Shown: positions 19,826 through 41,678 of the stretch, piece by piece
How positions within the stretch are numbered: the first letter of the stretch is position 1
Layout: each line of letters opens with the position of its first letter
From: an uncultured Acidimicrobiaceae bacterium
Lineage (GTDB): Bacteria; Actinomycetota; Acidimicrobiia; Spongiisociales; ZC4RG35
Reading direction: 5' to 3'
NCBI GenBank assembly: GCA_964571765.1
Contig: CAZNDH010000008.1
Coordinates: 141 to 64,140, forward strand
Length of the DNA: 64,000 nucleotides
Position numbers and translations under genes: made by a program
The notes under the pieces: model-generated
The model's input: the letters and a program-made list of their open reading frames with translations, nothing else
What the model was told of the DNA's origin: nothing
The model's database searches: none

Positions 19826-20863
19826 TCAACCGGTAGATGGAGCCGCCGACGGGTCCCGGGCCTCGGTCATCCCCGGGTCCTCGTCGGGCCCCTCCCCAGG
19901 CTCCTCGCCGTCGCCCCCGTCCGGGACATCGGCGAGGCCACAGTCGACCAGGACCGTCTCGGTGTCGCCACCGCCGAAGCGCACCCGCTCGAAGGCGACC
20001 ACCGCGGCCAGTTGCTCCTCGCTGAGAGCACCTCCGAATCCGGGCATGACGCCCCCACCGCCGACCGGCTTGTCGGTGTCCCCGTAGGTTCCCCGGCCCG
20101 CATTCTGGAACCCGGTCGTTCCCAGGTTGACCCACTCGATATGGTCGGAGCAGGCCCCAAAGGTGGTGATCACCCCGGTCATGGGGAGCGCCACGCCTCC
20201 CTGGCCCTGGGCGCCGTGGCAGGAGGAGCAGTTGACGCCTCCCACCGCACCGCCGGCATAGATCGTCCCCCCGATGGCGATGAAGTCCTGACCGTCGGTC
20301 GCCGGCGTCCTCCCGGTGAACTCGGAGCCGTCGCAGTCGACGATCTCGCCGGTGATCACGTCGGTTCGCAACTCTGTGGCCTCTCCGCACTCGCCGGTGG
20401 CCGCCCCACCCAGGGCGAACAAGGCGATGAGGGGGGCTGCGAGCAGAAGGGAGGTCAGCCAGCGAGGGATGGCGGTGTTGGTTCGCTCCCTGATCCCGGC
20501 GGTGGGCACGGTGATCACCTCAGGGAGGTGGGCCGCCTCCCGGGATGTGACTTCGGCGGGCGGGGTGGCCACGGTGGCCGCCACCGGGGCTGGTGTCGTC
20601 GGTACCGGGGGCGCTGGGGACGCTTCCGGCTCCTCAGATGGGGCCGCCTCCTCGCTGGGCGGCTCCGCCGGGGGCGCCGTCTCAACAGTGGGCTCGGGCA
20701 CACCGGAGACACCGGTGGCGGGGATGTCACCACCGCCGGCCCAGGCGGTGAGCACCTCATCGACGGTGGCGCCGGTCTCGGCTGCCCTGGCCGCGGCGGA
20801 GCGCTGCACCAGGGGCTCGGGAAGGCCCATGACGGCGGCGGCTGCGCTGAGAAGCTCGCTCAT
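19826..20863 (-). CDS. Membrane-anchored monohaem c-type cytochrome (CcoP-like) with N-terminal cytoplasmic module
   Basis: A single haem-c motif CSSCHG and a VMPGFGGALSEEQLAAVVAF class-I cytochrome c tail. One TM segment (WLTSLLLAAPLIALFAL). The stop-start overlaps the upstream gene. Confidence 0.75.
   Translation of the reverse strand: MSELLSAAAAVMGLPEPLVQRSAAARAAETGATVDEVLTAWAGGGDIPATGVSGVPEPTVETAPPAEPPSEEAAPSEEPEASPAPPVPTTPAPVAATVATPPAEVTSREAAHLPEVITVPTAGIRERTNTAIPRWLTSLLLAAPLIALFALGGAATGECGEATELRTDVITGEIVDCDGSEFTGRTPATDGQDFIAIGGTIYAGGAVGGVNCSSCHGAQGQGGVALPMTGVITTFGACSDHIEWVNLGTTGFQNAGRGTYGDTDKPVGGGGVMPGFGGALSEEQLAAVVAFERVRFGGGDTETVLVDCGLADVPDGGDGEEPGEGPDEDPGMTEARDPSAAPSTG
20729..20863 (-). 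repeat. About 135-nt segment duplicated at 21487-21621 (5' ends of the two cytochrome c genes)
   Basis: The two stretches align by eye at high nucleotide identity (not computed). They encode SELLSAAAAVMGLPEPLVQRSAAARAAETGATVDEVLTAWAGG and SELLSAAAAALGLPEPLVRRSAEARAAETGTTVDEVLTAWAGG. Confidence 0.8.
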
Positions 20864-21621
20864 CGGTCGCCCATGGTTACCGACTCGGAGAGATAGGCGA
20901 CCAGCGCCTCGAGATGTTCCTCACGGAGGTTGTGGGGAGGATGGCCCCCCGCACCGGCCACCACTGCGGCGGTCTCGGCCTGATTGAGACGGGCGCCCAC
21001 GTTGGCCAGGTCGGGGCCGAAACGACGTGAGCCCAGGACCTGGTTGGTGTCGTTCAGAGTGACGGCGCCCAGTCCGACGTCGGCGATCACCGGCCGGACC
21101 ATCTGGGTGTGGCAGGCGGCACATCCGAGGTTGACGTAGACCGAGCGGCCCTCCTCTGCCAGGGCACCGAAGGGGAGCGCCGAGGTGCGTTCGCCTGGGC
21201 TGTCGATGGGCACCGACGGTCCGATCAACGCCACCAGCAGCACCACCAGGAACAAACCGACCACCCCGGCGAACATCTTGAGCGGTTTGTCGGCCGCACC
21301 AACCAGCACTGGAGGCCTGTAGGGAACCATGGCCTCCTCGGGGAGCTCCTCAGCCGCCGGTGGTGTCGGGGCGGTGGGAGGAGGCGCCTCGGGCGTCGCC
21401 GGGGCCTGATCCCCCTCCGGTGGGACACCCTCATCCACCGGGGATTCCTCGGCCTCGCCTGCAGTTGGGGAGGCAGTGGGTGCCGGGGCACCACCCGCCC
21501 AGGCGGTGAGCACCTCGTCGACCGTGGTCCCGGTCTCGGCGGCCCGGGCCTCGGCCGACCGGCGCACCAGGGGCTCGGGGAGCCCGAGGGCGGCGGCGGC
21601 TGCACTGAGCAACTCGCTCAC
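20860..21621 (-). CDS. ccoO: CcoO-like monohaem cytochrome c subunit (cbb3 oxidase subunit II family)
   Basis: GRSVYVNLGCAACHTQMVRP and LGSRRFGPDLANVGAR match CcoO/FixO signatures. GTG at 21621 forms a GTGA overlap with the CcoN-like stop. The track's longer N-terminus overlaps that gene. Confidence 0.75.
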   Translation of the reverse strand: MSELLSAAAAALGLPEPLVRRSAEARAAETGTTVDEVLTAWAGGAPAPTASPTAGEAEESPVDEGVPPEGDQAPATPEAPPPTAPTPPAAEELPEEAMVPYRPPVLVGAADKPLKMFAGVVGLFLVVLLVALIGPSVPIDSPGERTSALPFGALAEEGRSVYVNLGCAACHTQMVRPVIADVGLGAVTLNDTNQVLGSRRFGPDLANVGARLNQAETAAVVAGAGGHPPHNLREEHLEALVAYLSESVTMGDR

Positions 21622-23054
21622 GAGCTCTGCTCCACGGTGACCAGCATCTCCTGGGTGCGCGCCGGGCCCCTGACCACCGTCCCCAGGATGGTTGAGGCGT
21701 AGGCCGCATGACCGAGGAAGGCGATCAGCGATGCGCCCAAGGCGAACAGCAGGAAGGTGTCGACCACCGGCCCGGCTCCGGCCCCCCATCCCTCCCCGGC
21801 ATCGACATAGGCGCCCGAGTTGGACCCGGCTATCCAGGAGTAGCCGCTGACCAGCCCGGCGGCGGTGAGGAACACCAGGACGCCGATGGAGCCGATCAGG
21901 GTGAGGCGTATGAAGCTGCGGGCTCGCCTCGGCGAGGGCATGTCCCTGCCGATCAGTCGGGGCAGTGCGGCAAAGGACACCCCGGCGACGAGCAGGACGC
22001 CGACCCCGGCGATGGCGGTGTACTCCACCGCCTCCCAGAAGGAGGTGAGAGTGGCCACCGCCGCCACCGAGCGGAAACCGGCTATGGCGGCCAGGGCGCC
22101 CACCCCGGCGGCGAGGAAGAGCCCGTACACCCCGGCGGACACCCCCGGGTGGTCACCGAGACGCGACCAGGAGCCCTCCAGCGTCAACGATACGTTGGCC
22201 GCGTTGGCCACGGCACCGATGGGGAAGGCCAGGCCCAGGGCGGCGGCGACACCGGCCAGCCAGCCGGGCCCCGGCCCGAAGATCAACTGGGCAGTGCCCC
22301 ACCAGACCGAGGCGAGGCCAAGTGACCAGAACCCCACCGCGGCCAGGGTGCGGCTGGCCAGTGGGACGTCCAATTCCCTGACGACGGTGTAGTAGAAGAC
22401 CCCGGTGCCCAGCGTCATCACAACCATGGTCACCAGACCGGCGGCGAGGAACATGTCGTTATAGGCCATGGCCACCGGGGTGAGGAACGGCGAGTGCCCG
22501 GCGGCGTAGGCCGCGTAGAGCAAGGGAAGCCAGGTGACCCCGCCCAGGACGAACCAGATGGTCACATACGAGTGCTTCTCCTCCCGCTCTGCGATGGTAC
22601 GGGCGGTGACCAGGAACGGCACTGCCAGCACCCCCACCATGGGGAGGTCGATCCACCAGGGGAGGGAGAACGGCTGGCGGCCGCTACCCAGCCCCAACCC
22701 GATGACGACAACCCCAAGTAGGACCAGGCCAGCTGTTCCGAGGAGCCCCAGTCCAGCGAGACGAGGGTTCCACAGCCTGACCCCGGTCAACCTGGGAAGC
22801 ACGTAGTACACCCCACCAACCAGAGAGATCACCCCGAATCCGAGGAGTAGGACCAGGTTCGCCATCGGCTCGAGCCGGCCGAAGCTGATCAGGGAAAGGC
22901 CGGCGAAGCGGAGCGAGGCCAGGGAGAGCACCGCGAGCAGGCTGCCTGCCACAAGGAACAGTGCCCCGACCACGAAATGGGTGACCGCCACGCGGTCCCC
23001 CTCGGCGCCACCGCCGAGGATGGCCCTGATGTCGGTTGTTCGGGTGCCGGTCAA
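21618..23054 (-). CDS. CcoN-like haem-copper oxidase subunit I homologue lacking canonical His ligands
   Basis: A 478-aa, 12-TM-like protein. Blocks SFGRLEPMANLVLLLGFG, YYVLPRL, LPWWIDLP and EEKHSYVTIWF resemble cbb3 CcoN. The protein has only 5 His, with no HH or HxH pair (see findings). Confidence 0.75.
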   Translation of the reverse strand: MTGTRTTDIRAILGGGAEGDRVAVTHFVVGALFLVAGSLLAVLSLASLRFAGLSLISFGRLEPMANLVLLLGFGVISLVGGVYYVLPRLTGVRLWNPRLAGLGLLGTAGLVLLGVVVIGLGLGSGRQPFSLPWWIDLPMVGVLAVPFLVTARTIAEREEKHSYVTIWFVLGGVTWLPLLYAAYAAGHSPFLTPVAMAYNDMFLAAGLVTMVVMTLGTGVFYYTVVRELDVPLASRTLAAVGFWSLGLASVWWGTAQLIFGPGPGWLAGVAAALGLAFPIGAVANAANVSLTLEGSWSRLGDHPGVSAGVYGLFLAAGVGALAAIAGFRSVAAVATLTSFWEAVEYTAIAGVGVLLVAGVSFAALPRLIGRDMPSPRRARSFIRLTLIGSIGVLVFLTAAGLVSGYSWIAGSNSGAYVDAGEGWGAGAGPVVDTFLLFALGASLIAFLGHAAYASTILGTVVRGPARTQEMLVTVEQSS

Positions 23055-23292: not shown

Positions 23293-23925
23293 ATGTACCG
23301 CCTTGCAGAACTGAGCGACACCCGGCGCCGAACCATCGGTGCAGCCCTGCTGATCGCCGGGCTCCTCGGTTTGGTGGTAGGGGTAGTCGTCATCCACTGG
23401 GCCTCCTTTCCCGAGACCGAGGTGGTCAACGGGCTCGAGGTCCCGGTGGTGGTCGACTACCTGAACTGGTTCCCCAGGGGCTCACTGTGGCTAGGGCTCG
23501 GTTATCTCATCGTCTTCGGGGCAACCAGCCTGGCCCTGGTCGGTGGCACATTCCTCTGGGTCCTCAACCAGAAGATGACCTGGGCCCGGGCCACCATCGC
23601 GGCCATGCTCACCTGGATAGCCCTGGTCTTCTACCTGGGGATGGTCCCCTCGGAGTTCCTCACCTTTGCCCAGACCGACCTCGACTGGTCGTCCCAGCGG
23701 ATCGCCATCACGATTCCACCGATCCTGGTCCTGGGCAACGAGATCGACATCAGCTGGGCAGCGGTACGCGACTCGATCCAAGCGGGATACAGCATGGGCA
23801 TGTTGGGGCTGGCCATCGTGCTCGGGCTCCAGATTCAGAAGATCAAGGACGGCAGGCCGGCCAAGGCGCAGCCCTCCGAGTTGCTCTCCCCCTATGGTCG
23901 GCCGCTGCTGAGGGGTGACCGCTGA
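23293..23925 (+). CDS. Polytopic membrane protein, first gene of the b6c-type operon
   Basis: ORF track entry with 4-5 hydrophobic helices. TGATG overlap with the ferredoxin gene. I recognise no family. Confidence 0.5.
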   Translation: MYRLAELSDTRRRTIGAALLIAGLLGLVVGVVVIHWASFPETEVVNGLEVPVVVDYLNWFPRGSLWLGLGYLIVFGATSLALVGGTFLWVLNQKMTWARATIAAMLTWIALVFYLGMVPSEFLTFAQTDLDWSSQRIAITIPPILVLGNEIDISWAAVRDSIQAGYSMGMLGLAIVLGLQIQKIKDGRPAKAQPSELLSPYGRPLLRGDR

Positions 23926-24374
23926 TGCCCAGAGGCGTCGTCGACGAGACCCCGCCGATCAGGGATGACTACCAGCTGGCACTGGTGGAGGGCGACTACT
24001 TCGCCGACAAGCTGCGTCCCAAGCAGTTTCTCCACATCGACCAGTCGGAGTGCATCCTCTGCGAGGGGTGTGTCGACATCTGCCCATGGAAGTGCATCCA
24101 CTACCTGTCGCTCGACGCCATTTCCGAAGGGGTCAACGTCGACCATCCCGCCGACGATGCGCAGAACTACGGCTTCTTCATCGTCGACGAGGACGAGTGC
24201 ACCCGATGTGCCCTGTGCATCGACCGCTGTCCCACCGGGGTGATCTCCCTGGGCAAGTTCGAGGGCTCGCTGGCCGAACAGGCCGCCGAGCTGGGGCTGG
24301 ATCGCCGTCCCTGGGACTTCGACACCGGCCAACGTGACTTCAAGAACGGCTACTCGTACGGTATGCGCTGGTAG
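23925..24374 (+). CDS. 2[4Fe-4S] ferredoxin-like protein
   Basis: Two cluster motifs: CILCEGCVDICP and CTRCALCIDRCP. Confidence 0.8.
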   Translation: MPRGVVDETPPIRDDYQLALVEGDYFADKLRPKQFLHIDQSECILCEGCVDICPWKCIHYLSLDAISEGVNVDHPADDAQNYGFFIVDEDECTRCALCIDRCPTGVISLGKFEGSLAEQAAELGLDRRPWDFDTGQRDFKNGYSYGMRW

Positions 24375-24383
24375 GGAGGTGTA

Positions 24384-25160
24384 GTGGCCAACGGCAACGG
24401 GAGAACGGGTCTGAAGGACCGGGTGAAGGAGGCCCAGGAAAAGCTCTGGGGCTCACAGGTGGTTGATGCCATCCTCCGCCCGGGGTCTCCCTTCAAGCAG
24501 GGCTACCAGGACAGTCCGCGGAACCGCTCCTACGTGGTCATGAACAACGTCCTCTACCACCTGCACCCGGTCAAGGTGAAGCGCCACGGGGTGAAGCTCT
24601 CCTACACGTTGTGTCTAGGCGGGCTCAGCTTCTTCCTCTTCATCCTGCTCACCATCACCGGCATCTTCCTCATGTTCTATTACACCCCGACCACCGAGCT
24701 CGCCTACGCCGACATCGAGCGTCTCTCCACCGACGTGGCCTTCGGGACCATGGTGCGCAACCTGCACCGTTGGGGGGCCCACCTCATGGTCCTATCGGTG
24801 TTCCTCCACATGAGCCGGGTCTTCTACCACGGCGCCTACAAGCCGCCCCGTGAGTTCAACTGGGTGATCGGGGTCATCCTCCTCTTCCTCACGCTGTTCC
24901 TCTCATTCTCGGGGTACCTGCTCCCCTGGGATCAGCTCGCCTACTGGGCTGTGACCGTGGGCTCCAACATGGCGGCGGCTTCACCGGTTATCGGCGACCA
25001 GGTCCAGTTCGCCCTGTTCGGAGGGGTGGAGGTCAGCGGGGCCAGCCTGCTCCGCTTCTATGTCCTTCACGTGCTGGGCTTTCCCTTCATCATCGTCATC
25101 TTCATGGCCGTCCATTTCTGGCGTGTCCGCAAGGACGGCGGGATCTCGGGGCCTCTGTAG
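24384..25160 (+). CDS. petB: Cytochrome b6-like (N-terminal four-helix half of cytochrome b)
   Basis: GGGAGG lies upstream of the GTG start. The motifs RNLHRWGAHLMVLSVFLHM, YLLPWDQLAYWA and LHVLGFPFIIVIFMAVHF supply the haem-b ligand histidines. Confidence 0.9.
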   Translation: MANGNGRTGLKDRVKEAQEKLWGSQVVDAILRPGSPFKQGYQDSPRNRSYVVMNNVLYHLHPVKVKRHGVKLSYTLCLGGLSFFLFILLTITGIFLMFYYTPTTELAYADIERLSTDVAFGTMVRNLHRWGAHLMVLSVFLHMSRVFYHGAYKPPREFNWVIGVILLFLTLFLSFSGYLLPWDQLAYWAVTVGSNMAAASPVIGDQVQFALFGGVEVSGASLLRFYVLHVLGFPFIIVIFMAVHFWRVRKDGGISGPL

Positions 25161-25168
25161 GTGTAGCC

Positions 25169-26110
25169 ATGGTGGACATACCCGAAGACCTTCTGAGGAG
25201 ATCTGCGGAGGCCAAGGCCCGCGCCTTGGGCGTCCCGGTTGAGGACGTCCTCGCCGAGATGAAGGGGGAGGGCCCTCCGGTGGAGATCCCCCCACCCGAC
25301 GAGCCGCCCGCACCGGAGACCGCCGAAGAGGTCGCCGCGGAGACCGAGCCTGATCCGGAGCCGGTCCTCGAGGTCCCACAGGAGGACCAGCCCGACGCCG
25401 AGGTCGAGGTCGAGGCCGACGGCGATCAGGAGGTGGACCCGGAGGAGCCCAAGGTGGCGGTCTACGACGAAGAGCCGGTCCCCGAGCCCGAGCCGGTGGC
25501 GGCACCGCCTCCGGGCAACGGAGGGGGCCGGGTGGCCGCGTTGGTGACCCCGCGTCCGGTGGTTCCACCCACCGGTGTCCCTGAAGGGGTCCGTACCCAG
25601 CGCCTGCTCACCGTGGTCAAGGCGCGGGCCATCCAGAACGTCAAGGCCGAGCCCAGCGACAAGGTCAACACGTGGCCCCACCTGATGCTCCTCGAGTTCG
25701 GTGCCCTGCTCGCCATAACCGGCCTCTTGGTGATCATGGCGGTGGTAATCCACTCGCCCTTGCTCGACCCGGCCAACCCCAACGCCACACCCAACCCATC
25801 CAAGGCGCCCTGGTACTTCCTCGGCCTCCAGGAGCTGCTCAGCTACTTCGACCCTCAGATCGCCGGTGTGATGATCCCGCTGTTCATCGGGATCATCGGC
25901 TTCATGGCAATACCCTTCGTCGACAAGAACCCGTCCACCCGGCCCAGTGACCGCAAGTTCGCCATCATGCTGTACTCGATCTTCCTCGCCGGGTCGGCCA
26001 CGCTGACCATTTTCGGTGTCCTCTTCCGAGGTCTCGGGTTCAACTTCTCCTATCCGTGGCGGGACGGGATCTTCTTCGACGACCTACTCGACTGGGTGCA
26101 CTTCGAATGA
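25169..26110 (+). CDS. petD: Cytochrome b C-terminal half (subunit IV-like) with long acidic N-terminal extension
   Basis: PSKAPWYFLGLQELLSYF is the PEWY-type Qo motif region. The N-terminus MVDIPEDLLRRSAEAKARALGVPVEDVLAEMKG repeats the module seen on the two cytochrome c genes. Confidence 0.85.
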   Translation: MVDIPEDLLRRSAEAKARALGVPVEDVLAEMKGEGPPVEIPPPDEPPAPETAEEVAAETEPDPEPVLEVPQEDQPDAEVEVEADGDQEVDPEEPKVAVYDEEPVPEPEPVAAPPPGNGGGRVAALVTPRPVVPPTGVPEGVRTQRLLTVVKARAIQNVKAEPSDKVNTWPHLMLLEFGALLAITGLLVIMAVVIHSPLLDPANPNATPNPSKAPWYFLGLQELLSYFDPQIAGVMIPLFIGIIGFMAIPFVDKNPSTRPSDRKFAIMLYSIFLAGSATLTIFGVLFRGLGFNFSYPWRDGIFFDDLLDWVHFE

Positions 26111-26991
26111 CCTTCACCAACATGGTCCTGATCGGGGTGGCCGTCTTCGCCATCCTCGGCGCCATCGGAGCCTTCACCATCGCCTTCCGCCGCTCCCAGG
26201 CAGCCAGACCCCGGTCACCGGTGGAGGGGGTCTCCGAGGAGACCAGGCGGGCCGATCGCTCCCTGGTCGGGGTGAGGGTGGAGCCGATTGTGGTGGAGAT
26301 GGCCGAGCCGGAAGCCGAGGTCGAAGAGGGGCCCGAAGAGGTCGAGGAGCCGGACGCTGTCTCGGTCCGGCTGGTCGAGTCCCAGCGAGTGATCGAGGTC
26401 TCCCCCGAGGAGTCCGGAGTGAGCCGGCGCCAGTTCTTCAACCGGGCGATGAACGCCACCTTCTTCTCCTTCCTCGGCTTGATGGGAGTGAGCTCCCTGG
26501 CGATGTTCTGGCCCCGGCTGACCGGAGGGTTCGGAGCGGACATCGACGCCGGTGGGGTCACCGACCTGCAGACCCAGGTGGTGGCTCCCGACGGCTCGGT
26601 GGTGCCGGTGTTCGTCCCCGAGGCCCGGGCCTACGTGGTACCGGCACCCGACACCCTCTCCGAGCAATTCGTCGACCAGCCGGTCGCCGCTGCCGGCCTG
26701 ATGGCCCTCTTCCAGCGTTGTGTTCACCTCGGATGCCGGGTGCCCTGGTGTGCCACGGCGGTCGGCTTCGAATGCCCCTGCCACGGTTCCCGTTACAACG
26801 CCATCGGCGAGTACTTCGGAGGCCCCGCCGGCCGTAACCTCGACCGCTTCGCCGTCGAGCTCAGCGGCGACCGGTTCATCATCCGCACCGGGACCATCAT
26901 CGAGACCCCTCGCGCCCCCGCCCTCTCGGTGGCCTACCCGCAGGGCCCGAGTTGCATCGGCGTGGTCGGAGAGGACGAGGAAGACCACTAG
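26107..26991 (+). CDS. Rieske [2Fe-2S] protein
   Basis: ATGA overlap with the previous gene. The motifs CVHLGC and CPCHGS are present, with an internal SRRQFF twin-arginine-like segment. Confidence 0.9.
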   Translation: MTFTNMVLIGVAVFAILGAIGAFTIAFRRSQAARPRSPVEGVSEETRRADRSLVGVRVEPIVVEMAEPEAEVEEGPEEVEEPDAVSVRLVESQRVIEVSPEESGVSRRQFFNRAMNATFFSFLGLMGVSSLAMFWPRLTGGFGADIDAGGVTDLQTQVVAPDGSVVPVFVPEARAYVVPAPDTLSEQFVDQPVAAAGLMALFQRCVHLGCRVPWCATAVGFECPCHGSRYNAIGEYFGGPAGRNLDRFAVELSGDRFIIRTGTIIETPRAPALSVAYPQGPSCIGVVGEDEEDH

Positions 26992-27007
26992 TGGGGCCGA
27001 TGCCGGC

Positions 27008-28705
27008 ATGACCACCGAGATCATCACCGTCCTCGCCGTTATTGCCGGGATCGCCTGGCTCGGTGTGATGCTGGTCGCCGCATTCCGCAACCGCGGAGGC
27101 GAGGAGGTCCCCCCCAACCTGCAGCCCGGGATCGATGACCAGCAACTCGAGACCCGGCGGCTCGAGGGTGGTCAGAAGGCGGCGATCGTCTTCTCCGCCT
27201 TCCTCGCGGTGGCCCTCCCCCTCCATTTCCTCTCTGAGCCCAGCCGCCAGGCCGGCTTCGTCGAGGAGTTCGCCGAGGCCTCGGTGTCCCGGGGCGAGTC
27301 GCTGGCAATCGAGTTCGCTTGCTTCAGCTGCCACGGCCCCCTCGGGGCGGGCGGGGTGGCTCGTTTCGTCGAGCAGCGTTCCGGGGTGACTGTGGACTGG
27401 TTGACCCCCCGGCTCGACGACATCTTCTACCGCTACGGCGACGACGAGGTGGCCTTCTGGATCACCTATGGCCGTCCCAACACCCCGATGCCTCCTTGGG
27501 GCCTGGCCGGGGGTGGCCCGATGAACGAGCACCAGGTGCAGGATTTGGTCAGCTACTTGCGCACCATCCAGCGACCCCAGCAGGAGGTGGCGAACCAGGC
27601 GGCCGCGGCCCCGGGCAGCGAAGCGGCCCGGCTAGCCGGTGCCGACGCCGCGGTCGAGGCGGCGATCATCGACCAGTTGCAGGTGATAGCCGAGATGGAC
27701 CAGGCGCCCGAGGACCTCGCATTCGTTGGTCCTCTCGCCGAGAGAGCTCGCCAGGTCTTTGACGGGGCAGGCTCCGGCTTCGACACCGATGCCGACGGGC
27801 TCAGCGACGTCGCCGAAGTCGAGCTCACCGAGATCTCTGAGGCCGCCTATCTGTACTTCCAGGCGTTCGATCCCATCCAACTCGACCCCGAGGTAGCCGA
27901 CGCAGAGCTATTCGACGAGGCGATGGATCGGCTCCGCCAGGCGGCTCAGCGGGATCCGATCCTCCGCCCCCAAGTGGACGTCATCGAGAGAATCCTGGAG
28001 ACCGCCGAAGGGGAGGACACCGACGGCGACGGCATCCCCGACGCCGCCGAGACCCGGATCAACGCCCAGCTGACCGAGGCGGCCAGGGCGACCATCCCCG
28101 GTGAGGTGGCGACGGTGGTCCGTCTCGATCCGTCCAACCCGGAGACCACGTCGGGAGTGCCCGACCGCACCGCGGCGAGCAGGCTGGTGGGCGCACTGGA
28201 GTCGGTGGCGGTGGCCAAACGGGTCCTGGTGGAGAACGAGGACCGGATCAGGCCGGCCGAGGAGGCCGGGCTCGCCTTCCTTCGTCAGGCCCAACGAGAA
28301 CGGCGGTGGGATGTCGATGTCCCCGGTGTCGCCGCCGCCATGGGAGCCACCGAGGGGGAGGCTGCTCGAGCGGTCGGGCTGTTCAACGCCAACTGCGCCC
28401 GTTGTCACACCGCCGGCTTTTCGGCCGGCATGGCCTTCACCCAGGAGGTCGGGTCCGGTGGCTTCGGCCCGGCCCTATGGGAAGGCCGGCCGGTGGTCCA
28501 GTTCGGCGAGGCCCCCACCGACGAGACCCAGACCGACCTGTTGGTCGATTTCCTAACCAACGGCTCGGAGCCTCAGCGGCCCTACGGGCTCAACGGGGTG
28601 GGCACGGGCCGGATGCCAGGGTTCGGTCCCGTACTCCCGGAGTCCGACATCGAGCTTCTCGCTCGTTACCTGAGATCGGGCAACCTCAGCGGGAGGGAGG
28701 AATAG
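27008..28705 (+). CDS. Membrane-anchored dihaem c-type cytochrome (QcrC-like) with about 250-aa insert between the haem domains
   Basis: Haem motifs CFSCH (27320-27334) and CARCH (28394-28408). N-terminal TM segment. The start ATG at 27008 is in frame within track ORF 26720-28705. Confidence 0.8.
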   Translation: MTTEIITVLAVIAGIAWLGVMLVAAFRNRGGEEVPPNLQPGIDDQQLETRRLEGGQKAAIVFSAFLAVALPLHFLSEPSRQAGFVEEFAEASVSRGESLAIEFACFSCHGPLGAGGVARFVEQRSGVTVDWLTPRLDDIFYRYGDDEVAFWITYGRPNTPMPPWGLAGGGPMNEHQVQDLVSYLRTIQRPQQEVANQAAAAPGSEAARLAGADAAVEAAIIDQLQVIAEMDQAPEDLAFVGPLAERARQVFDGAGSGFDTDADGLSDVAEVELTEISEAAYLYFQAFDPIQLDPEVADAELFDEAMDRLRQAAQRDPILRPQVDVIERILETAEGEDTDGDGIPDAAETRINAQLTEAARATIPGEVATVVRLDPSNPETTSGVPDRTAASRLVGALESVAVAKRVLVENEDRIRPAEEAGLAFLRQAQRERRWDVDVPGVAAAMGATEGEAARAVGLFNANCARCHTAGFSAGMAFTQEVGSGGFGPALWEGRPVVQFGEAPTDETQTDLLVDFLTNGSEPQRPYGLNGVGTGRMPGFGPVLPESDIELLARYLRSGNLSGREE

Positions 28706-29062
28706 ATGTTCCGTGAGCTGTTCCGATCCCTGCTCTCGGCGAACATGTTCGTCACCGGGATCATCCTCACCCTGGTCTCGGTCCTCCTCTTCTACGGGTC
28801 GATGTATCTGTTCAACTACACCAACTTGGGCAAGAAGCTCGGCTTCTTGGTGACCGGTGCCGCGGTCTTCGGCTGGTTGTCGATCAGCTCACTCCTGTTC
28901 GTGGTCTACGCCCCACGGGGTCCCCGTCCGGCGAGCATCGAGGGGCTCAACGCCTTCGAAGTCCGGATCATCCCCCTCACCTACCTCATGGTCGCGGCGG
29001 TCCTCTTCTTGGTATTCCTCACCGCCCTCCACCAGTACGAGGAGACCCGCGAAGGCGACTAG
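28706..29062 (+). CDS. Small three-TM membrane protein, last gene of the b6c-type operon
   Basis: The ATG comes immediately after the upstream stop. Three hydrophobic helices. Confidence 0.5.
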   Translation: MFRELFRSLLSANMFVTGIILTLVSVLLFYGSMYLFNYTNLGKKLGFLVTGAAVFGWLSISSLLFVVYAPRGPRPASIEGLNAFEVRIIPLTYLMVAAVLFLVFLTALHQYEETREGD

Positions 29063-29152: not shown

Positions 29153-29761
29153 TCAGCCGTAATAGCTGAGGATTTGGAGCTCGTGGGAAAGGTCGACCTG
29201 TCGCACCGCCACCGACGGGGGCACATCCACCCTGACCGGGGCGAAGTTGAGGATCGAGGTGATCCCGGTGCCGACCAGGGCGTCGGCCACCTTCTGGGCA
29301 GCCCCGGCAGGCACCGTGAGAATGGCCATGTCGAACAACTCGGCGGCGCGGTCCTCAGGCATCAGATCCAGAGAGCGCACCTCGATTCCCGAGACCTTCT
29401 CGCCGATCCGTCTCGGGTCGACGTCGTATATGACTGCCACGTCGAATCCCCTCCGAGTCAGGCCGGAGTACCGGGCCAGGGCAGTCCCCAGGTTGCCGGC
29501 GCCGAAGATCGCGACCCGCCGACGCTTCTCGATGCCCAGCTCCCGGCGTATCCGATCGCGTAGGTTGGCCGCTGGATAACCCACCCCGCGGATCCCCTGG
29601 AAGCCGAGCGCCGCCAGGTCCCGCCGGACGTTGGCCGCGGTCACCCCTCCGGCCTCGGCCAGCTCGTCGGAGCTGACCGTTTCCCGGGAGCCGTTGCCGT
29701 CTTCGAGGAGACGCAGATACCTGGGGAGCCTGACCACGGTGGCCCGGGAGAGGTGAGTCAT
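29153..29761 (-). CDS. rex: Redox-sensing transcriptional repressor Rex
   Basis: MTHLSRATVVRLPRYLRLLE..., VTAANVRRDLAALG and the Rossmann motif VAIFGAGNLGTALA. The upstream part of track ORF 29153-30427 is antisense to the next gene. Confidence 0.9.
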   Translation of the reverse strand: MTHLSRATVVRLPRYLRLLEDGNGSRETVSSDELAEAGGVTAANVRRDLAALGFQGIRGVGYPAANLRDRIRRELGIEKRRRVAIFGAGNLGTALARYSGLTRRGFDVAVIYDVDPRRIGEKVSGIEVRSLDLMPEDRAAELFDMAILTVPAGAAQKVADALVGTGITSILNFAPVRVDVPPSVAVRQVDLSHELQILSYYG

Positions 29762-29830
29762 CGACAGGCGACGATACATCCGCTCACCGGTTCTGCTTTC
29801 TGCCCGGGCGCCTCCTACGCTCGGGACTCG

Positions 29831-31069
29831 ATGAGCTCTTTTGGGGTCCTGGTCGTGGGTGGTGGCCCAGCGGGAAGCGCCGTTGCTCTGTGGCTGGCCA
29901 GGGCCGGCCACCAGGTGACCATGGTCGAGGCCAAGGAGTACCCCAGGGAAAAGACCTGCGGCGACGGCCTCACCCCGAGGGCGATCCTCCAACTCGATGA
30001 GATGGGTTTCGACTTCGACGTTCCCGGCTTCCACCGCATCGATGGGCTGCGTTCCTTTGCCGGAGACGAGCTGATGATCGAGATGCCCTGGCCGGAACAC
30101 AGCCGGTTCCCCAACTGGGGTGGGGTGATCCGCCGGCGTGATCTCGACGAGCAGGTCGCCCGTCTCGCCGAGAAGGAGGGGGTGGCAATCCGGGAGAAGA
30201 CCACGGCGACCCCGATGATCGAGGAGGGGAGGCTGGCCTTGGTCGAGCTCAACAGTGGCGGGGAACGCGAACTGGTCACCCCGGACATCACGGTGATCGC
30301 CGACGGCTCGATGAACCGCTTCGGGAGGGAGCTGGGGACCGCCCGGCGCAAGGACTACCCGCTGGGCCTGGCCGCCCGCGGCTACTACAGCTCCCCGCGA
30401 TCCGACGACCCCTTCCTGGAGAGCCAACTCGACCTGCGAGACTCCTCGGGGGCGACCATGCCCGGATATGGATGGGTGTTCCCGCTAGGGGACGGGACGG
30501 TCAACGTGGGAGTCGGACTGCTCTCCACCTTCAAGAGGTGGAAGCACGTCAACACCACCCACATGATGAACGACTATGCGGCCAATGCCCCCGAGTACTG
30601 GGGTCTCTCCGAGGGGACCAAGCTGACCAAGCCGGTGGGTGGCAAGCTGATCATGTCGTTCTCCCGGGGCCCCCTGGTCGGCGCCAACTGGATAACCATC
30701 GGCGACGCTGCCGGCTCGATCAACCCGTGGAACGGAGAGGGGATCTCCTATGCCTACGAGACTGGCCGTCTTGCCGCCGACTACGTGGGTCAGGCGATCG
30801 CCACCGGCGACCTCGGGTTGCTCCGACGCTACCCCCAGCGCCTCGAGGACGAGTTCGGGCTCTACTACAAGATGGCCCGGATCTTCGTCAAGTTGATCGG
30901 CAACCCCCCGGTGATGCGCACCCTGGCCCACACCGGCCTGCGTAACCGGCCCCTCATGGAGTGGACCCTCAAAGTGATGGCCAACCTTCTCGACGAAGAC
31001 GAGAAGCACGTCGGCGAGCGGGCTTACGACGCACTGGCCGCCATCGTCCGCACCCTTCCCACCAAGTGA
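29831..31069 (+). CDS. Geranylgeranyl reductase-family FAD-dependent oxidoreductase (MenJ-like candidate)
   Basis: FGVLVVGGGPAGSAVALWLARAGHQVTMVEAKEYPREKTCGDGLTPRA is the family N-terminus. Confidence 0.8.
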   Translation: MSSFGVLVVGGGPAGSAVALWLARAGHQVTMVEAKEYPREKTCGDGLTPRAILQLDEMGFDFDVPGFHRIDGLRSFAGDELMIEMPWPEHSRFPNWGGVIRRRDLDEQVARLAEKEGVAIREKTTATPMIEEGRLALVELNSGGERELVTPDITVIADGSMNRFGRELGTARRKDYPLGLAARGYYSSPRSDDPFLESQLDLRDSSGATMPGYGWVFPLGDGTVNVGVGLLSTFKRWKHVNTTHMMNDYAANAPEYWGLSEGTKLTKPVGGKLIMSFSRGPLVGANWITIGDAAGSINPWNGEGISYAYETGRLAADYVGQAIATGDLGLLRRYPQRLEDEFGLYYKMARIFVKLIGNPPVMRTLAHTGLRNRPLMEWTLKVMANLLDEDEKHVGERAYDALAAIVRTLPTK

Positions 31070-32765: not shown

Positions 32766-33235
32766 TCCCTGAGCTCGAGGCGGTGGCGGGCCGGTTCGAA
32801 GGGGTGCGATGGGAGGAGTCCCAAGGCCAGGCCGTTGCCGAGGTCCCCTCAGACCAGTGGTATCCGTTCGCCGAAGCCCTCAAAGGGGCCGGCTTCGAGA
32901 TGTGCTCCGATGTGACCGCGGTCGACTGGATGCGGGCACGTCCCCAGCGCTACCAGGTAGTGGCCAACCTGACGTCCATCGGTCTTCTCACCCGGGTGCG
33001 GATGGTCACCGCGCTCGACCGCGAACAGCCCTCGCTGGCCTCGATCACCCCGATCTGGCCCGGCGCCGGTTTCGCCGAGCGCGAGGTCTACGACATGTTC
33101 GGCATCATTTTCGAGGGACACCCCGACCTGACCCGGATCCTCATGCCCGACGACTGGGAGGGCCACCCCCTGCGCAAGGACTTCGGGGTGGGGTCTGTAC
33201 CTGTCCAGTTCAAGACCTCACCAAAGGCGACCTGA
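32762..33235 (+). CDS. nuoC: NADH-quinone oxidoreductase subunit C (operon 1)
   Basis: TTG at 32762 overlaps the nuoB stop. ANWHEREV-type motif [40 protein letters not shown]. Confidence 0.85.
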
Positions 33236-34581: not shown

Positions 34582-35198
34582 GCCACTGGCCGGATCCCAC
34601 CCAGGCCAGGGCCAGGGAGATCCTGTCCCGCTACCCGGAGAGGAGGTCGGCGGTGATGCCCCTGCTCTACCTGGCGATGTCCGAGGAGGGCTATCTCAGT
34701 GAGGAAGGCATGGCGGAGGTGGCCGATTGGTGCGGGATCACCCCCGCCCAGGTGCAGGCGGTTGCCTCGTTCTACACCATGTACAAACGCGAGCCCACCG
34801 GCCGCTACCTGATCTCCTGCTGCACTTCGATCAGCTGCATGCTCCTGGGTGCCGATGAGGTGCTCCATGCCCTCGAGGACGAATCGGGGGTCCCCCACGG
34901 GGAGACCGACCCCGAGGGTCTCGTCTCGGTGGAGCACGTGGAGTGCATTGGTGCCTGCGGCGGGGCGGTGGCCGTCCAGGTCAATTATGAGCTCATCGAG
35001 GGGGTCACCCCGGAGCGGGCCCGTTCCCTGGTCAACTGGCTGCGTGACGCCCGTCCCGGGACCTTGGTCTCCGACGAGATGCAGGGGCTCTTCGGTGGGA
35101 CCCGGTCGTTCGACTGGGCGATCAGGGAGAGCGTCGGCGCCACCGGCCCCTTCCCGGCCTTCCAGCCGCTGGGCACCGTCGGGGAGGACGCCAGGTGA
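34578..35198 (+). CDS. nuoE: NADH-quinone oxidoreductase subunit E
   Basis: [2Fe-2S] cysteine pattern in CCTSISCML and ECIGACG. The TTG start overlaps the nuoD stop. Confidence 0.9.
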   Translation: MSHWPDPTQARAREILSRYPERRSAVMPLLYLAMSEEGYLSEEGMAEVADWCGITPAQVQAVASFYTMYKREPTGRYLISCCTSISCMLLGADEVLHALEDESGVPHGETDPEGLVSVEHVECIGACGGAVAVQVNYELIEGVTPERARSLVNWLRDARPGTLVSDEMQGLFGGTRSFDWAIRESVGATGPFPAFQPLGTVGEDAR

Positions 35199-40154: not shown

Positions 40155-40155
40155 C

Positions 40156-40800: not shown

Positions 40801-41321
40801 TCGAGGCGATCCTCTTCGTCCTGATGGGGACGACCGCGGTCGCCGGGGGGGTCGCCGTGGTGATCGCCCGCAACCCGGTGTACTCGGCAATGGGCCTTCT
40901 GGCCACACTGTTCTCGGTGGCGGTGCTCTATGTAGTCCATCTCGCCCATCTGGTTGCCGCGGTCCAGGTCATCGTGTACGCCGGGGCGGTGATGACCCTG
41001 TTCCTCTTCGTCATCATGCTCATTGGGGTAGACAAGAGCGAGACCCGTGATGAGCGCCTCCCCTACCAGCGGTTGATCGTCATCGTGCTCGGGATGCTCA
41101 TCGTCGCCGGTGGTATCGGGATCACCGTGTTCGGTGACTTCGACTGGGTGCCGGCAGCGGCCGCCTCGATGTCGCCGGAGGCCACCAACGGCACCGTGCA
41201 GGCGGTGGCCGAGCCGCTGTTCACCGAGTGGGTGCTCGCCTTTCAGGCGACCGCCTTGCTCCTCACCATCGCCGCCGCCGGTGCCGTCGCCCTGGCCCAC
41301 TTCCGCCGGAGGGGGAGCTGA
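40797..41321 (+). CDS. nuoJ: NADH-quinone oxidoreductase subunit J (operon 1)
   Basis: ATGA overlap with nuo[23 protein letters not shown]...[19 protein letters not shown]. Confidence 0.9.
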
Positions 41322-41623: not shown

Positions 41624-41678
41624 GCTCGCTTCACTCGCTCATCCTCGGTACCAAGTTCCAAATACTGGGGGTCACGGA

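What the first reader, a model, noticed from the sequence alone, without database searches (positions are those of the whole stretch)
20729..21621. A cytoplasmic module of about 30-45 aa duplicated at nucleotide level on CcoO-like and CcoP-like cytochromes and present again on cytochrome b subunit IV
The first 45 codons or so of the two c-type cytochrome genes (20863-20729 and 21621-21487) are near-identical even at DNA level (SELLSAAAA.(M/L)GLPEPLV.RSA.ARAAETG.TVDEVLTAWAGG). Each copy is followed by a Pro/Glu/Ala-rich linker and a single TM helix. The N-terminus of the subunit-IV-like protein of the divergent b6c-type operon (25169-25270, PEDLLRRSAEAKARALGVPVEDVLAEMKG) carries the same motif: PE.L(L/V)RRSAEA(K/R)A...G..V(E/D)(D/E)VL. 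Three membrane subunits from two different respiratory modules therefore share a small N-terminal helical domain that topology places in the cytoplasm. This looks like a common docking or assembly handle, for example for supercomplex formation or a shared cytoplasmic partner. I do not recognise it as a described domain.
Basis: partly seen in the sequence, partly recalled or inferred. Interest (0 to 1): 0.65.

Follow-up and report, generated by a model that had tools for sequence, protein, structure and literature searches.

The report
New tethered domain on respiratory subunits
A small, previously undescribed three-helix protein domain sits on long flexible cytoplasmic tethers at the start of several unrelated respiratory membrane proteins in Acidimicrobiia bacteria, probably as a shared docking handle; the neighbouring "cbb3 oxidase" also turns out to lack every metal-binding residue.

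Summary
The first 44 codons of the CcoO-like and CcoP-like genes are 86% identical in protein and 82-84% in DNA. The N-terminus of the subunit-IV-like protein is a significant third copy, lacking the first helix (E=3e-10 with a profile built only from other genomes).

It is not a local duplication. It is an undescribed domain of about 43 aa, confidently predicted as three helices (pLDDT 96), with no Pfam, NCBIfam, PDB-sequence or Foldseek match. 426 protein clusters carry it, almost all from Acidimicrobiia.

It always lies before the first membrane helix, on a Pro/Ala/Glu-rich acidic tether of conserved length, in 1-7 tandem copies. Five unrelated membrane-protein families carry it, all linked to the cytochrome c branch of respiration:
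- subunit IV
- the small last subunit of the b6c operon
- the CcoO-like cytochrome
- the CcoP-like cytochrome
- a 7-8-helix protein next to caa3 oxidase operons

Copies are under purifying selection, with occasional gene conversion.

I infer a tethered protein-docking handle that organises these complexes or recruits a shared partner. This is untested.

The CcoN-like subunit lacks all six histidine ligands in about 170 homologues, yet databases annotate it as cbb3 oxidase.

The parts
21490..21621 (-). Module copy 1: aa 1-44 of the CcoO-like cytochrome c, full three-helix form (VSELLSAAAAALGLPEPLVRRSAEARAAETGTTVDEVLTAWAGG)
   Evidence: AF2 helices 2-12, 16-30, 34-41 at pLDDT 96
21277..21489 (-). 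Acidic Pro/Ala/Glu-rich tether of the CcoO-like protein (aa 45-115)
   Evidence: P 26%, net charge -11; tether length conserved in 44 orthologues, median 67 aa, IQR 64-71
21220..21276 (-). Single membrane anchor helix of the CcoO-like protein (aa 116-134)
   Evidence: hydropathy; AF2 helix 111-133
20860..21219 (-). Periplasmic mono-haem c domain of the CcoO-like protein (FixO-type, CAACH)
   Evidence: Pfam FixO, E=7.8e-13, 48.9 bits
20732..20863 (-). Module copy 2: aa 1-44 of the CcoP-like cytochrome c, full three-helix form
20459..20731 (-). Acidic Pro/Ala/Glu-rich tether of the CcoP-like protein (aa 45-135)
   Evidence: tether length conserved in 42 orthologues, median 87 aa, IQR 83-91
20402..20458 (-). 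Single membrane anchor helix of the CcoP-like protein (aa 136-154)
19826..20401 (-). Periplasmic cytochrome c domain of the CcoP-like protein (one CSSCH motif)
   Evidence: Pfam Cytochrom_C, E=1.1e-5; one CxxCH in the sequence
25169..25270 (+). Module copy 3: aa 1-34 of the subunit-IV-like protein. Two-helix form lacking helix 1 (MVDIPEDLLRRSAEAKARALGVPVEDVLAEMKGE)
   Evidence: First start codon in its frame, 9 nt after the cyt b6 stop
25271..25696 (+). Long acidic tether of the subunit-IV-like protein (aa 35-176)
   Evidence: aa 36-172 measured: D+E 23%, net charge -22
25697..26110 (+). Subunit IV (PetD/ExtQ-like) core with three membrane helices
   Evidence: Pfam Cytochrom_B_C, E=1.2e-8; NCBIfam ExtQ, E=3.3e-13
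21618..23054 (-). CcoN-like haem-copper-oxidase homologue lacking all six His ligands and the cross-linked Tyr. First gene of the operon that carries module copies 1 and 2
28706..29062 (+). Small membrane protein (118 aa; three helices by hydropathy), last gene of the b6c-type operon. It has no module here, but homologues elsewhere carry 3-7 N-terminal copies (P0016, P0012)
   Evidence: (E=1e-27 and 5e-30)
23293..25160 (+). Upstream genes of the b6c-type operon, none carrying the module: 210-aa membrane protein (23293-23925), 2x[4Fe-4S] ferredoxin (23925-24374), cytochrome b6 (24384-25160)
26056..28705 (+). Downstream genes of the b6c-type operon, neither carrying the module: Rieske protein (26056-26991) and di-haem cytochrome c (likely start 27008, end 28705)

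Best explanation
What is shown.
- The repeated N-terminus is a previously undescribed domain of about 43 residues, specific to the Acidimicrobiia lineage.
- It is predicted to fold as three helices. Consensus: x-S-D/E-L-L-x-A-A-A-x-A-L/M-G-V/L/M-P-E-x-L-V/L-x-R-S-A-x-A-R/K-A-x-x-x-G-x-x-V-D/E-x-V/I-L-x-x-W/M-x-G.
- It always lies on the cytoplasmic side, at the very N-terminus and before the first membrane helix.
- It is held on an acidic, proline-rich, sequence-variable tether whose length is conserved for each carrier family.
- It occurs singly or in ordered tandem arrays of up to seven.
- Five unrelated membrane-protein families carry it: subunit IV of the b6c-type complex; the small last subunit of that operon; the CcoO-like cytochrome c; the CcoP-like cytochrome c (both encoded behind a ligand-less CcoN homologue); and a 7-8-helix protein encoded next to the caa3-type oxidase operon.

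What is inferred.
- The module is a tethered protein-protein docking handle.
- The tethers are 65-165 residues long. From general polymer considerations, not computed here, an extended proline-rich chain of that length could span tens of nanometres. That would let the modules reach each other, or a common cytoplasmic partner, across neighbouring complexes.
- In this way the b6c complex, the membrane-anchored c-type cytochromes and the terminal oxidase would be co-assembled or kept together.
- Putting the same handle on all of them, and multiplying it, gives multivalent avidity.

The near-identity of the two copies in this window reflects strong purifying selection on an old paralogous pair, plus some gene conversion between the adjacent genes.
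For: Reality and homology.

Fold: AF2 on a 70-copy alignment gives pLDDT 95.9 with helices 2-12, 16-30 and 34-41. Even without an alignment, residues 1-45 score 80-94.

Undescribed:
- No Pfam or NCBIfam hit for the module or for full carriers.
- No PDB sequence hit with a single sequence or a profile.
- No Foldseek hit at E<0.5.
- Database names are only 'hypothetical protein', 'mono/diheme cytochrome c family protein' or 'MFS family permease'.

Spread:
- 426 clusters at E<1e-3 and 216 at E<1e-10 among 1.84 billion representatives.
- Of 79 GTDB-species loci, 66 are titled Acidimicrobiia, Acidimicrobiaceae or Actinomarina. Most of the rest are labelled only Actinomycetota, Actinomycetes or 'bacterium'.

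Position and copy number:
- Every copy lies before the first membrane helix. The only exceptions are apparent gene-call read-throughs (P0026, P0071).
- Copy numbers: CcoO-like 1, CcoP-like 1-5, subunit IV 1-5, 118-aa family 3-7, 7-8-helix family 1.

Specificity:
- In 50 syntenic loci the module is on subunit IV, CcoO-like and CcoP-like.
- It is never on cyt b6, Rieske, di-haem cyt c, ferredoxin, the 210-aa protein or the CcoN-like protein, apart from one apparent read-through segment.
- No copy is found anywhere else in the window, which includes a run of complex I genes.
- The 7-8-helix carrier lies convergent to COX2-COX1-COX4-CtaG in 18 of 23 loci.

Selection and exchange:
- Between the CcoO and CcoP copies of 38 genomes, pN=0.14 against pS=0.54.
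- Within-genome identity is 0.79, against 0.69 between genomes.
- DNA is near-identical in four lineages (L076, L008, L020, L051).
- A copy's nearest relative is often on a different carrier family.

Tether: length is conserved (CcoO median 67, IQR 64-71; CcoP median 87, IQR 83-91) while sequence is not.

Charge: module mean net charge is -2.3 and linkers are -10 to -22. This argues for a protein partner rather than nucleic acid or anionic lipid.

Compensation: where CcoO is fused to the CcoN homologue and cannot carry an N-terminal copy, CcoP carries four (L082).
Against: - No interaction, homo- or heterotypic, was tested.
- No partner protein was identified. No soluble carrier or partner turned up, and the apparent stand-alone copies are fragments or frameshifts.
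- Most of the strongly conserved residues (S22, A23, A25, A27, L18, V19, L38) look like core-packing positions in a helical-wheel reading. That reading is my inference. It means no conserved binding surface has been demonstrated.
- Only the best 150 of the 426 hits could be inspected, so carriers outside respiration may exist.
- The link of the 7-8-helix carrier to the caa3 oxidase rests on gene neighbourhood in related genomes only.
- One array carrier (P0012) sits in a different context, next to a response regulator.
Confidence: 0.5

Rival explanations
1. The module is a shared handle for a biogenesis or quality-control factor. A cytoplasmic chaperone, insertase-associated factor or membrane protease such as FtsH would recognise it, so that these subunits are inserted, matured or degraded in a coordinated way. 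It would not hold finished complexes together.
For: - It is always at the extreme N-terminus, the first part to emerge from the ribosome.
- The carriers are cofactor-bearing or complex-forming membrane subunits.
- In one locus the 7-8-helix carrier lies near an FtsH-like gene.
Against: - Tandem arrays of up to seven copies with position-specific conservation, and conserved tether lengths, are hard to explain for a simple recognition tag.
- Haem attachment for c-type cytochromes happens on the other side of the membrane (established knowledge).
- The FtsH neighbourhood was seen in a single locus and is not among the recurrent neighbours.
Confidence: 0.15
2. The module has no specific partner. 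It is a fast-folding N-terminal cap which, with the acidic tether, fixes the N-in topology, keeps the long acidic tail from being translocated, or acts as an entropic spacer that prevents crowding around the complexes.
For: - Acidic N-terminal tails can otherwise be translocated (established knowledge).
- Most conserved residues look structural (alignment A3; my reading).
- The module is a minimal, very stable-looking helical fold.
Against: - One cap would suffice, yet arrays of 3-7 ordered copies exist.
- The first subunit-IV copy lacks one helix in all orthologues and is still conserved.
- The module is restricted to one functional set of proteins rather than spread over many N-in membrane proteins of these genomes.
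- Homogenisation between carriers suggests the copies must match each other.
Confidence: 0.12
3. The module is a regulatory sensor. It binds a cytoplasmic metabolite or a regulatory protein, such as a redox or energy-state signal, and transmits this to several respiratory complexes at once.
For: - The same module on several complexes would allow coordinated control.
- The window places a Rex-like regulator gene next to the operons.
- In chloroplasts a stromal region of subunit IV is reported to act in kinase activation (my own knowledge, not checked here).
Against: - A 43-residue three-helix unit has no obvious ligand pocket.
- It has no Cys or His for redox or metal sensing.
- A 65-165-residue disordered tether is a poor route for transmitting a conformational signal to the membrane domain (inference).
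Confidence: 0.08
4. The module is a membrane-tethered helix-turn-helix that binds DNA or RNA and so links the nucleoid or transcripts to respiratory complexes.
For: - The stretch 'AAAALG-hP-E-x-L-V-x-R' resembles a helix-turn-helix signature.
- A few members give weak hits to HTH families: HTH_23 for 3 of 70 members, best E=0.014; also Xre-like, HTH_3 and Myb.
- The Rv1626 entries among the Foldseek matches reach TM-score 0.72. From my own knowledge that protein contains an RNA-binding ANTAR domain.
Against: - All these hits are at noise level.
- The module is acidic (mean net charge -2.3, range -7 to +1) and sits on strongly acidic tethers.
- The first subunit-IV copy lacks the first helix of the putative motif.
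Confidence: 0.03
5. It is only a recent local duplication or gene conversion between two adjacent genes with no function of its own, and the third copy is a chance resemblance.
For: 82-84% DNA identity between adjacent genes in this window. Gene conversion does happen in some lineages.
Against: - The pair is present in 38 genomes with mean pS 0.54 and pN 0.14, so it is old and under purifying selection.
- The third copy is significant at E=3e-10 with an independent profile.
- 426 clusters in five carrier families have it.
Confidence: 0.02

Closest known systems
Peripheral subunit-binding domain (and lipoyl domains) on Pro/Ala-rich swinging arms of the E2 cores of 2-oxoacid dehydrogenase complexes
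   Same: A very small helical domain (about 35-45 aa). It is flanked by Pro/Ala/Glu-rich flexible linkers, sometimes occurs in tandem copies, and serves (in E2) as a tethered docking site for partner proteins. This is the best analogy for how the module may work.
   Different: No sequence relationship: Pfam E3_binding is not hit. The PSBD has two helices, this module three. E2 is soluble, whereas here the tether is anchored in the membrane at the N-terminus of respiratory subunits. No binding partner is known here.
bc1-cbb3 respiratory supercomplexes of Rhodobacter capsulatus (PMC7876108) and Pseudomonas aeruginosa (PMC10556555), and the membrane-anchored cytochrome cy
   Same: A Rieske/cyt b complex is physically joined to a CcoNOP unit. 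In R. capsulatus the closest contact is the CcoP N-terminal membrane helix with cyt b helix 7. Cytochrome cy needs its full 69-residue flexible linker for rapid electron transfer. In P. aeruginosa an extension of cyt c1 contacts cbb3. This parallels a tether of defined length attached to c-type cytochromes of both units.
   Different: Those contacts are in the membrane or periplasm, and the cy linker carries the haem domain. Here the tether is cytoplasmic and carries a non-redox three-helix domain. The CcoN here has no metal ligands. No physical association has been shown.
Obligate bcc-aa3 supercomplexes of Mycobacterium and Corynebacterium (Actinomycetota)
   Same: Same phylum. There is no soluble cytochrome c, so the bc complex and oxidase must be held together (established knowledge). 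This gives a rationale for a dedicated assembly device in a sister class.
   Different: Different complex type: unsplit QcrB and di-haem QcrC, against split b6 plus subunit IV here. No N-terminal module of this kind has been described for those supercomplexes, to my knowledge.
cbb3-type cytochrome c oxidase CcoNOP (C-family haem-copper oxidase)
   Same: Gene order N-O-P. The CcoN fold is recognisable (E=1e-17 to PDB 3mk7/9g6b). CcoO-like carries a FixO domain with CxxCH. Databases name the protein cbb3 subunit I.
   Different: All six His ligands and the cross-linked Tyr are replaced, in 48 of 48 and 120 of 120 homologues. CcoP-like has one haem motif rather than two. Both cytochromes carry the N-terminal module and tether.
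Small three-helix bundles (HTH, ANTAR, designed helical repeats)
   Same: Overall three-helix topology. Foldseek TM-scores reach 0.72-0.81 to designed toroid repeats and Rv1626.
   Different: No match is significant (best E=0.57). The module is acidic rather than basic. No sequence relationship.

Membership tests
Any curated domain family (Pfam-A 2025 copy, NCBIfam 20.0) | Significant profile-HMM match over the module | tested here: not met
   No family hit for the three window copies even at E<=10. None over the N-termini of the full proteins. Among 70 copies, at most 3 match any one family, best E=0.014.
Any protein of known structure | Sequence or fold match to a PDB chain | tested here: not met
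   phmmer best E=0.17. Profile search best E=0.77. Foldseek on the pLDDT-96 model best E=0.57, to designed proteins.
Helix-turn-helix DNA-binding domains | Match to an HTH profile, and a basic DNA-contacting surface | tested here: not met
   Only noise-level hits. Mean net charge -2.3, range -7 to +1, on tethers of net charge -10 to -22.
Peripheral subunit-binding domain (Pfam E3_binding) | Profile match to E3_binding | tested here: not met
   E3_binding is absent from all Pfam results.
Peripheral subunit-binding domain (Pfam E3_binding) | Small helical domain flanked by Pro/Ala-rich flexible linkers (architecture only) | tested here: met
   Linkers are P 17-26% and A 10-23%. This is a resemblance in design, not evidence of membership.
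Tat (twin-arginine) signal peptide | S/T-R-R-x-F-L-K motif followed within about 20 residues by a hydrophobic h-region | tested here: not met
   The first Arg of 'RRS' varies (R/Q/K/E) in the alignment. The next hydrophobic stretch is 65-165 residues away.
cbb3-type (C-family) haem-copper oxidase | Six conserved His ligands for haem b, haem b3 and CuB in CcoN, plus the cross-linked Tyr | tested here: not met
   Window residues at these positions are A65, A205, A255, Q256, V343, Y345 and V250. The pattern holds in 48 genomic homologues and 120 database homologues.
cbb3-type (C-family) haem-copper oxidase | Mono-haem CcoO subunit (FixO) with an N-terminal anchor | tested here: met
   Pfam FixO 48.9 bits against a cut-off of 29.6. 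CAACH motif and a single membrane helix. The NCBIfam CcoO score is far below its cut-off.
cbb3-type (C-family) haem-copper oxidase | Di-haem CcoP subunit | tested here: not met
   Only one CxxCH motif in the window protein. NCBIfam ccoP scores 21 bits against a cut-off of 180.
b6f/b6c-type Rieske-cytochrome b complex | Cytochrome b split into b6 (four helices) and subunit IV (three helices), with a Rieske protein in the operon | tested here: met
   PF00033 E=2e-50 on the b6 gene, PF00032 E=1e-8 on the next gene, Rieske PF00355. NCBIfam ExtP scores 298.5 against a cut-off of 290. Three helices in the subunit IV core.
Supercomplex docking element (functional class) | Physical contact between the module and another complex, another module or a common partner | not testable with these tools
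   No multimer prediction or experiment was available. Only circumstantial evidence exists.

The most novel reading that the evidence does not exclude
Acidimicrobiia use a dedicated cytoplasmic 'sticker and tether' system. One three-helix domain, placed in 1-7 copies on long acidic proline-rich arms of subunits of the b6c complex, of a catalytically dead CcoN scaffold carrying two c-type cytochromes, and of a protein associated with the caa3 oxidase, binds itself or a hub protein. It thereby zips the whole quinol-to-oxygen branch into one supercomplex or membrane patch. This would be a new principle of respiratory-chain organisation, acting from the cytoplasmic side. It would also give a new role to a degenerate haem-copper oxidase as an electron-wire scaffold.
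Probability: 0.3. Interest if true: 0.85.

Novelty: new variant of a known kind. Interest (0 to 1): 0.68.

Why it matters
Acidimicrobiia are abundant in oceans, soils, sediments and wastewater, yet their respiratory chain is known almost only from automated annotation.

Three points follow:
1. A conserved domain family of unknown function marks exactly the membrane proteins of the cytochrome c branch of respiration. This gives a concrete handle (bait, deletion target, multimer-prediction target) for asking how a b6c-type complex, membrane-anchored cytochromes and the terminal oxidase are wired together in a lineage that, like other Actinomycetota, probably lacks a soluble cytochrome c.
2. If the module is a multivalent cytoplasmic docking device, it would be a way of building respiratory supercomplexes not seen in the solved examples, whose contacts are in the membrane or periplasm.
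3. The gene annotated throughout public databases as "cbb3-type cytochrome c oxidase subunit I" in these organisms cannot bind its metals. Metagenomic inferences of high-affinity, microaerobic respiration in Acidimicrobiia that rest on this gene are likely to be wrong.

Tried and rejected
- Known-domain searches found nothing: Pfam, NCBIfam, PDB sequences (single sequence and profile) and Foldseek.
- The HTH or nucleic-acid reading is rejected on charge and on the noise-level hits.
- A Tat signal is rejected: the first Arg varies and no h-region follows.
- The word-indexed protein search with the 44-aa profile returned only proteins under 80 aa, mostly fragments, so it was useless for defining architectures.
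- Apparent stand-alone module proteins were checked. P0241 lies in a long-read contig where neighbouring genes are also split, so it is a frameshift artefact. No solid stand-alone or soluble carrier was found.
- I tested whether the 7-8-helix carrier is related to the 118-aa subunit (hhalign probability 0.5%) or to any PDB or Pfam family. It is not.
- No homologue of the 7-8-helix carrier is present in the window.
- I expected the 7-copy protein P0012 to follow a di-haem cytochrome c gene as in the window. It does not: its upstream neighbour resembles the 210-aa protein and its downstream neighbour is a response regulator.
- The first attempt to scan genomes with the mixed alignment failed for lack of a conserved stretch. 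A narrower alignment worked, but it biases the loci towards the 'V-x-RSAEARA' subtype.
- Literature searches for the module, for Acidimicrobiia supercomplexes and for ligand-less CcoN found nothing relevant.
Full report
**1. The observation**

On the minus strand, three genes overlap by four bases each:
- a CcoN-like gene (23054-21618)
- a CcoO-like gene starting at GTG 21621
- a CcoP-like gene starting at ATG 20863

The first 44 codons of the last two are 38/44 identical in protein. DNA identity is 82% over the first 135 nt by codon comparison and 84% over the 132-nt repeat found by the repeat finder (20731-20862 / 21489-21620). Thirteen codons differ only synonymously. Similarity vanishes after codon 44.

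Each copy is followed by a linker and one hydrophobic helix:
- Linkers are Pro/Ala/Glu-rich: P 22-26%, net charge -10 and -11.
- The helices are at aa 116-134 and 136-154.
- A c-type haem domain follows.

On the plus strand, the subunit-IV-like gene (25169-26110) starts 9 nt after the cytochrome b6 stop, at the first possible start codon of its frame. Its first 34 residues align with helices 2 and 3 of the module.

The third copy is statistically sound:
- A profile of the two cytochrome copies finds it as the only other hit in the six-frame translation of the window (E=7e-5).
- A profile of 59 copies from other genomes finds it at E=3.3e-10, with the best noise hit at 0.41. This profile contained no window sequence and no subunit-IV-type copy.

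No further copy exists in the window.

**2. What the module is**

No curated family covers it:
- Pfam and NCBIfam hits on the three proteins start only at the membrane or haem domains.
- The isolated copies hit nothing at E<=10.
- Among 70 diverse copies scanned one by one, no family is matched by more than three, and never better than E=0.014.
- PDB sequences give nothing, with a single copy or a profile.

AlphaFold2 on a 70-copy alignment predicts three helices (2-12, 16-30, 34-41) at mean pLDDT 95.9. Even the alignment-free run of the whole CcoO-like protein gave block means of 80-94 for residues 1-50. Foldseek against the PDB finds only insignificant matches, best E=0.57, to designed helical repeats.

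An exhaustive profile search of 1.84 billion representative proteins found 426 clusters at E<1e-3 and 216 at E<1e-10.

Many hits contain several copies, up to seven in P0012, separated by Pro/Ala/Glu-rich spacers. Internal copies in subunit-IV arrays have all three helices and bridge the two sequence subtypes. The subtypes are '...VLxAWAGG' on the cytochromes and '...VLAEMKGEG' on subunit IV. Within CcoP-type arrays, the second copy has its own conserved signature ('DYLVxLAAxAKRMP...') in several proteins. The arrays are therefore ordered and old, not fresh duplications.

**3. Who carries it**

I classified the best 150 hits by what follows the module:

| Carrier family | Hits | Copies per protein |
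|---|---|---|
| CcoO-like | 21 | 1 |
| CcoP-like | 19 | 1-5 |
| Subunit IV | 14 | 1-5 |
| Homologues of window ORF 28706-29062 (118 aa, last gene of the b6c operon) | 2 | 3 and 7 |
| Uncharacterised family of about 390 aa with 7-8 membrane helices | 8 | 1 |

The remainder are fragments or frameshifted calls. The module is always N-terminal to the first membrane helix. The only exceptions are read-through gene calls.

A scan of one genome per GTDB species returned 79 loci. Sixty-six are titled Acidimicrobiia, Acidimicrobiaceae or Actinomarina. Nine are labelled only Actinomycetota or Actinomycetes, three only 'bacterium', and one Acidobacteria, which I suspect is a mislabel.

In these loci the arrangement of the window is conserved. 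The operon 210-aa protein / ferredoxin / cyt b6 / subunit IV / Rieske / di-haem cyt c / 118-aa protein is transcribed divergently from CcoN-like / CcoO-like / CcoP-like.

The module is on subunit IV, CcoO-like and CcoP-like. The few apparent absences fall mostly in loci where the module sits on a separate unclassified segment, consistent with frameshift-split genes. It is never on the other subunits, apart from one CcoN segment that looks like a read-through.

The 7-8-helix carrier lies elsewhere in the same genomes. For example, L028 and L073 come from one chromosome. It sits convergent to a COX2(+cyt c)-COX1-COX4-CtaG operon in 18 of 23 loci. All five carrier families therefore belong to, or sit beside, the cytochrome c branch of the respiratory chain. 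No copy is found elsewhere in the window, which includes a run of complex I genes.

**4. Evolution of the pair**

For the CcoO and CcoP copies of 38 genomes, the mean proportion of synonymous differences is 0.54 and of non-synonymous differences 0.14. The pair is old and under purifying selection.

Within-genome identity (0.79) exceeds between-genome identity (0.69). Four lineages have nearly identical DNA: L076 at 100%, and L008, L020 and L051 at 94-96%. Gene conversion therefore occurs now and then. The window (pS 0.39, pN 0.07) is intermediate.

Across the whole family, a copy's nearest relative is often on another carrier family. The recurrent pairs are subunit IV with CcoP, the 7-8-helix protein with CcoO, and the 118-aa family with subunit IV. 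This indicates shuffling or homogenisation between carriers.

Tether sequences are not conserved, but tether lengths are:

| Carrier | Median tether length (aa) | IQR |
|---|---|---|
| CcoO-like | 67 | 64-71 |
| CcoP-like | 87 | 83-91 |
| Subunit IV | 165 | 139-176 |

**5. Topology**

This part is inference from established knowledge. A c-type haem domain must be periplasmic. With a single anchor helix, the N-terminus is therefore cytoplasmic in both cytochromes.

Subunit IV corresponds to helices E-G of cytochrome b, whose N-terminus is on the n-side. The module has no Cys or His and no signal sequence. The 'RRS' motif is not a Tat motif: the first Arg varies, and the next hydrophobic stretch is 65-165 residues away.

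**6. Mechanism**

Shown: a folded, conserved, acidic mini-domain on a long flexible acidic arm, multiplied in some carriers and confined to one functional set of membrane proteins.

Inferred: it is a protein-docking handle. The charge argues against DNA, RNA or anionic lipid as the target (mean -2.3 for the module, -10 to -22 for the tethers).

Several features are what one expects if the copies must recognise the same thing: conserved tether length, ordered arrays, matching subtypes on different carriers, and occasional homogenisation. That target could be each other or a common cytoplasmic partner.

In L082, CcoO is fused to the CcoN homologue and so has no free N-terminus. There CcoP carries four copies and subunit IV at least two.

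The nearest working analogy is the peripheral subunit-binding and lipoyl domains on Pro/Ala arms of E2 cores. The nearest biological context is the bc1-cbb3 supercomplexes:
- In R. capsulatus the closest contact is the CcoP N-terminal helix with cyt b helix 7, and cytochrome cy needs its 69-residue linker (PMC7876108).
- In P. aeruginosa an extension of cyt c1 contacts cbb3 (PMC10556555).

Those devices are in the membrane or periplasm; this one is cytoplasmic. I put about 0.5 on the docking-handle reading. The remainder is split among the rival readings scored separately (a biogenesis or turnover tag, a topology or spacer role, a regulatory sensor, nucleic-acid binding, a functionless duplication) and explanations not considered.

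**7. An unexpected finding next door**

The CcoN-like protein aligns with solved cbb3 CcoN chains over about 380 residues (E=1e-17). Every metal ligand is replaced:

| Ligand (3mk7 numbering, from my own knowledge; displays the 9g6b alignment) | Window residue |
|---|---|
| H60 | A65 |
| H207 | A205 |
| H257 / H258 | A255 / Q256 |
| H345 / H347 | V343 / Y345 |
| Y251 (cross-linked Tyr) | V250 |

The same holds in 48 of 48 homologues from the genomic loci and in 120 of 120 database homologues of at least 60% identity. At one of the seven sites, a single homologue in each set retains a His. Many of the database homologues are named 'cbb3-type cytochrome c oxidase subunit I' by NCBI or JGI.

This unit cannot be a haem-copper oxidase. 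It is more likely a scaffold for the two membrane-anchored c-type cytochromes. That fits a role between the b6c complex and the caa3 oxidase, and makes a shared assembly handle more plausible. This last step is inference.

**8. Limits**

- No interaction was tested and no partner identified.
- Only 150 of the 426 hits were seen.
- The genome scan used the pattern [LIM]V[RKE]RSAEARA and so favours one subtype.
- Nearly all related sequences are from metagenome-assembled genomes, some with frameshifts.
- The organism of the window is not identified beyond its closest relatives. L018 is 89% identical over the module and is titled Acidimicrobiaceae.

Noticed in passing
window 21618-23054 (-): The CcoN-like haem-copper-oxidase homologue has lost all six histidine ligands and the cross-linked tyrosine. 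The same is true in 48 genomic and 120 database homologues, many annotated 'cbb3-type cytochrome c oxidase subunit I'. It is probably a non-catalytic scaffold, and a systematic mis-annotation in Acidimicrobiia genomes.
   Followed up: yes
L073 7959-9134, and 22 other loci (e.g. L059 7953-9146); proteins P0104, P0141: An uncharacterised family of about 390 aa: one N-terminal module, a tether and 7-8 membrane helices. It has no Pfam or PDB relative. It lies convergent to COX2-COX1-COX4-CtaG (caa3-type oxidase) in 18 of 23 loci. It is not present in the window.
   Followed up: partly
window 23925-24374 (+) and 24384-26110 (+): A cytoplasmic 2x[4Fe-4S] ferredoxin gene sits directly upstream of cytochrome b6 in the b6c-type operon. 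The b6 protein scores above NCBIfam's cut-off for ExtP (298.5 against 290), and subunit IV resembles ExtQ, both from the 'selenite/tellurite reduction operon'. This suggests the complex is related to ferredoxin-containing cytochrome b complexes known from other phyla.
   Followed up: no
window 27008-28705 (+); motifs at about 27782 and 28016: The di-haem cytochrome c of the b6c operon has about 350 residues between its two haem motifs (aa 201 and 559 of the ORF). This stretch holds two acidic DxDxDG-type motifs (DTDADGLSD, DTDGDGIPD), one of which gives a bacterial TSP3-repeat hit. That is an unusual insert for a cytochrome c subunit.
   Followed up: no
window 29153-30427 (-) and about 32800-46700 (+): A Rex-like redox regulator gene (Put_DNA-bind_N + CoA_binding) and a run of complex I genes (49-kDa, 51-kDa, NuoG-, NuoH-, NuoL- and NuoN-like hits) follow the b6c operon. 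The window is thus a respiratory gene island. No module copy is found in any frame of that region.
   Followed up: partly
L082 6075-7997 (+) and 3636-5240 (+): In one relative (GCA_030431785.1) the ligand-less CcoN and CcoO are fused into one 640-aa protein. A 534-aa cupredoxin/multicopper protein and an Rrf2 regulator lie between it and the b6c operon. The CcoP-like protein there has four modules.
   Followed up: partly
L081 668-2524 (protein P0012): The record holder has seven module copies in front of a homologue of the 118-aa subunit. It follows a gene resembling the 210-aa first gene of the b6c operon and precedes a response-regulator gene, so this carrier also occurs outside the canonical operon.
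   Followed up: partly
window 26056-26991 (+): The Rieske protein has an unusually long N-terminal part (about 200 aa before the cluster-binding domain) with one hydrophobic helix and an acidic Glu-rich stretch, but no module.
   Followed up: no
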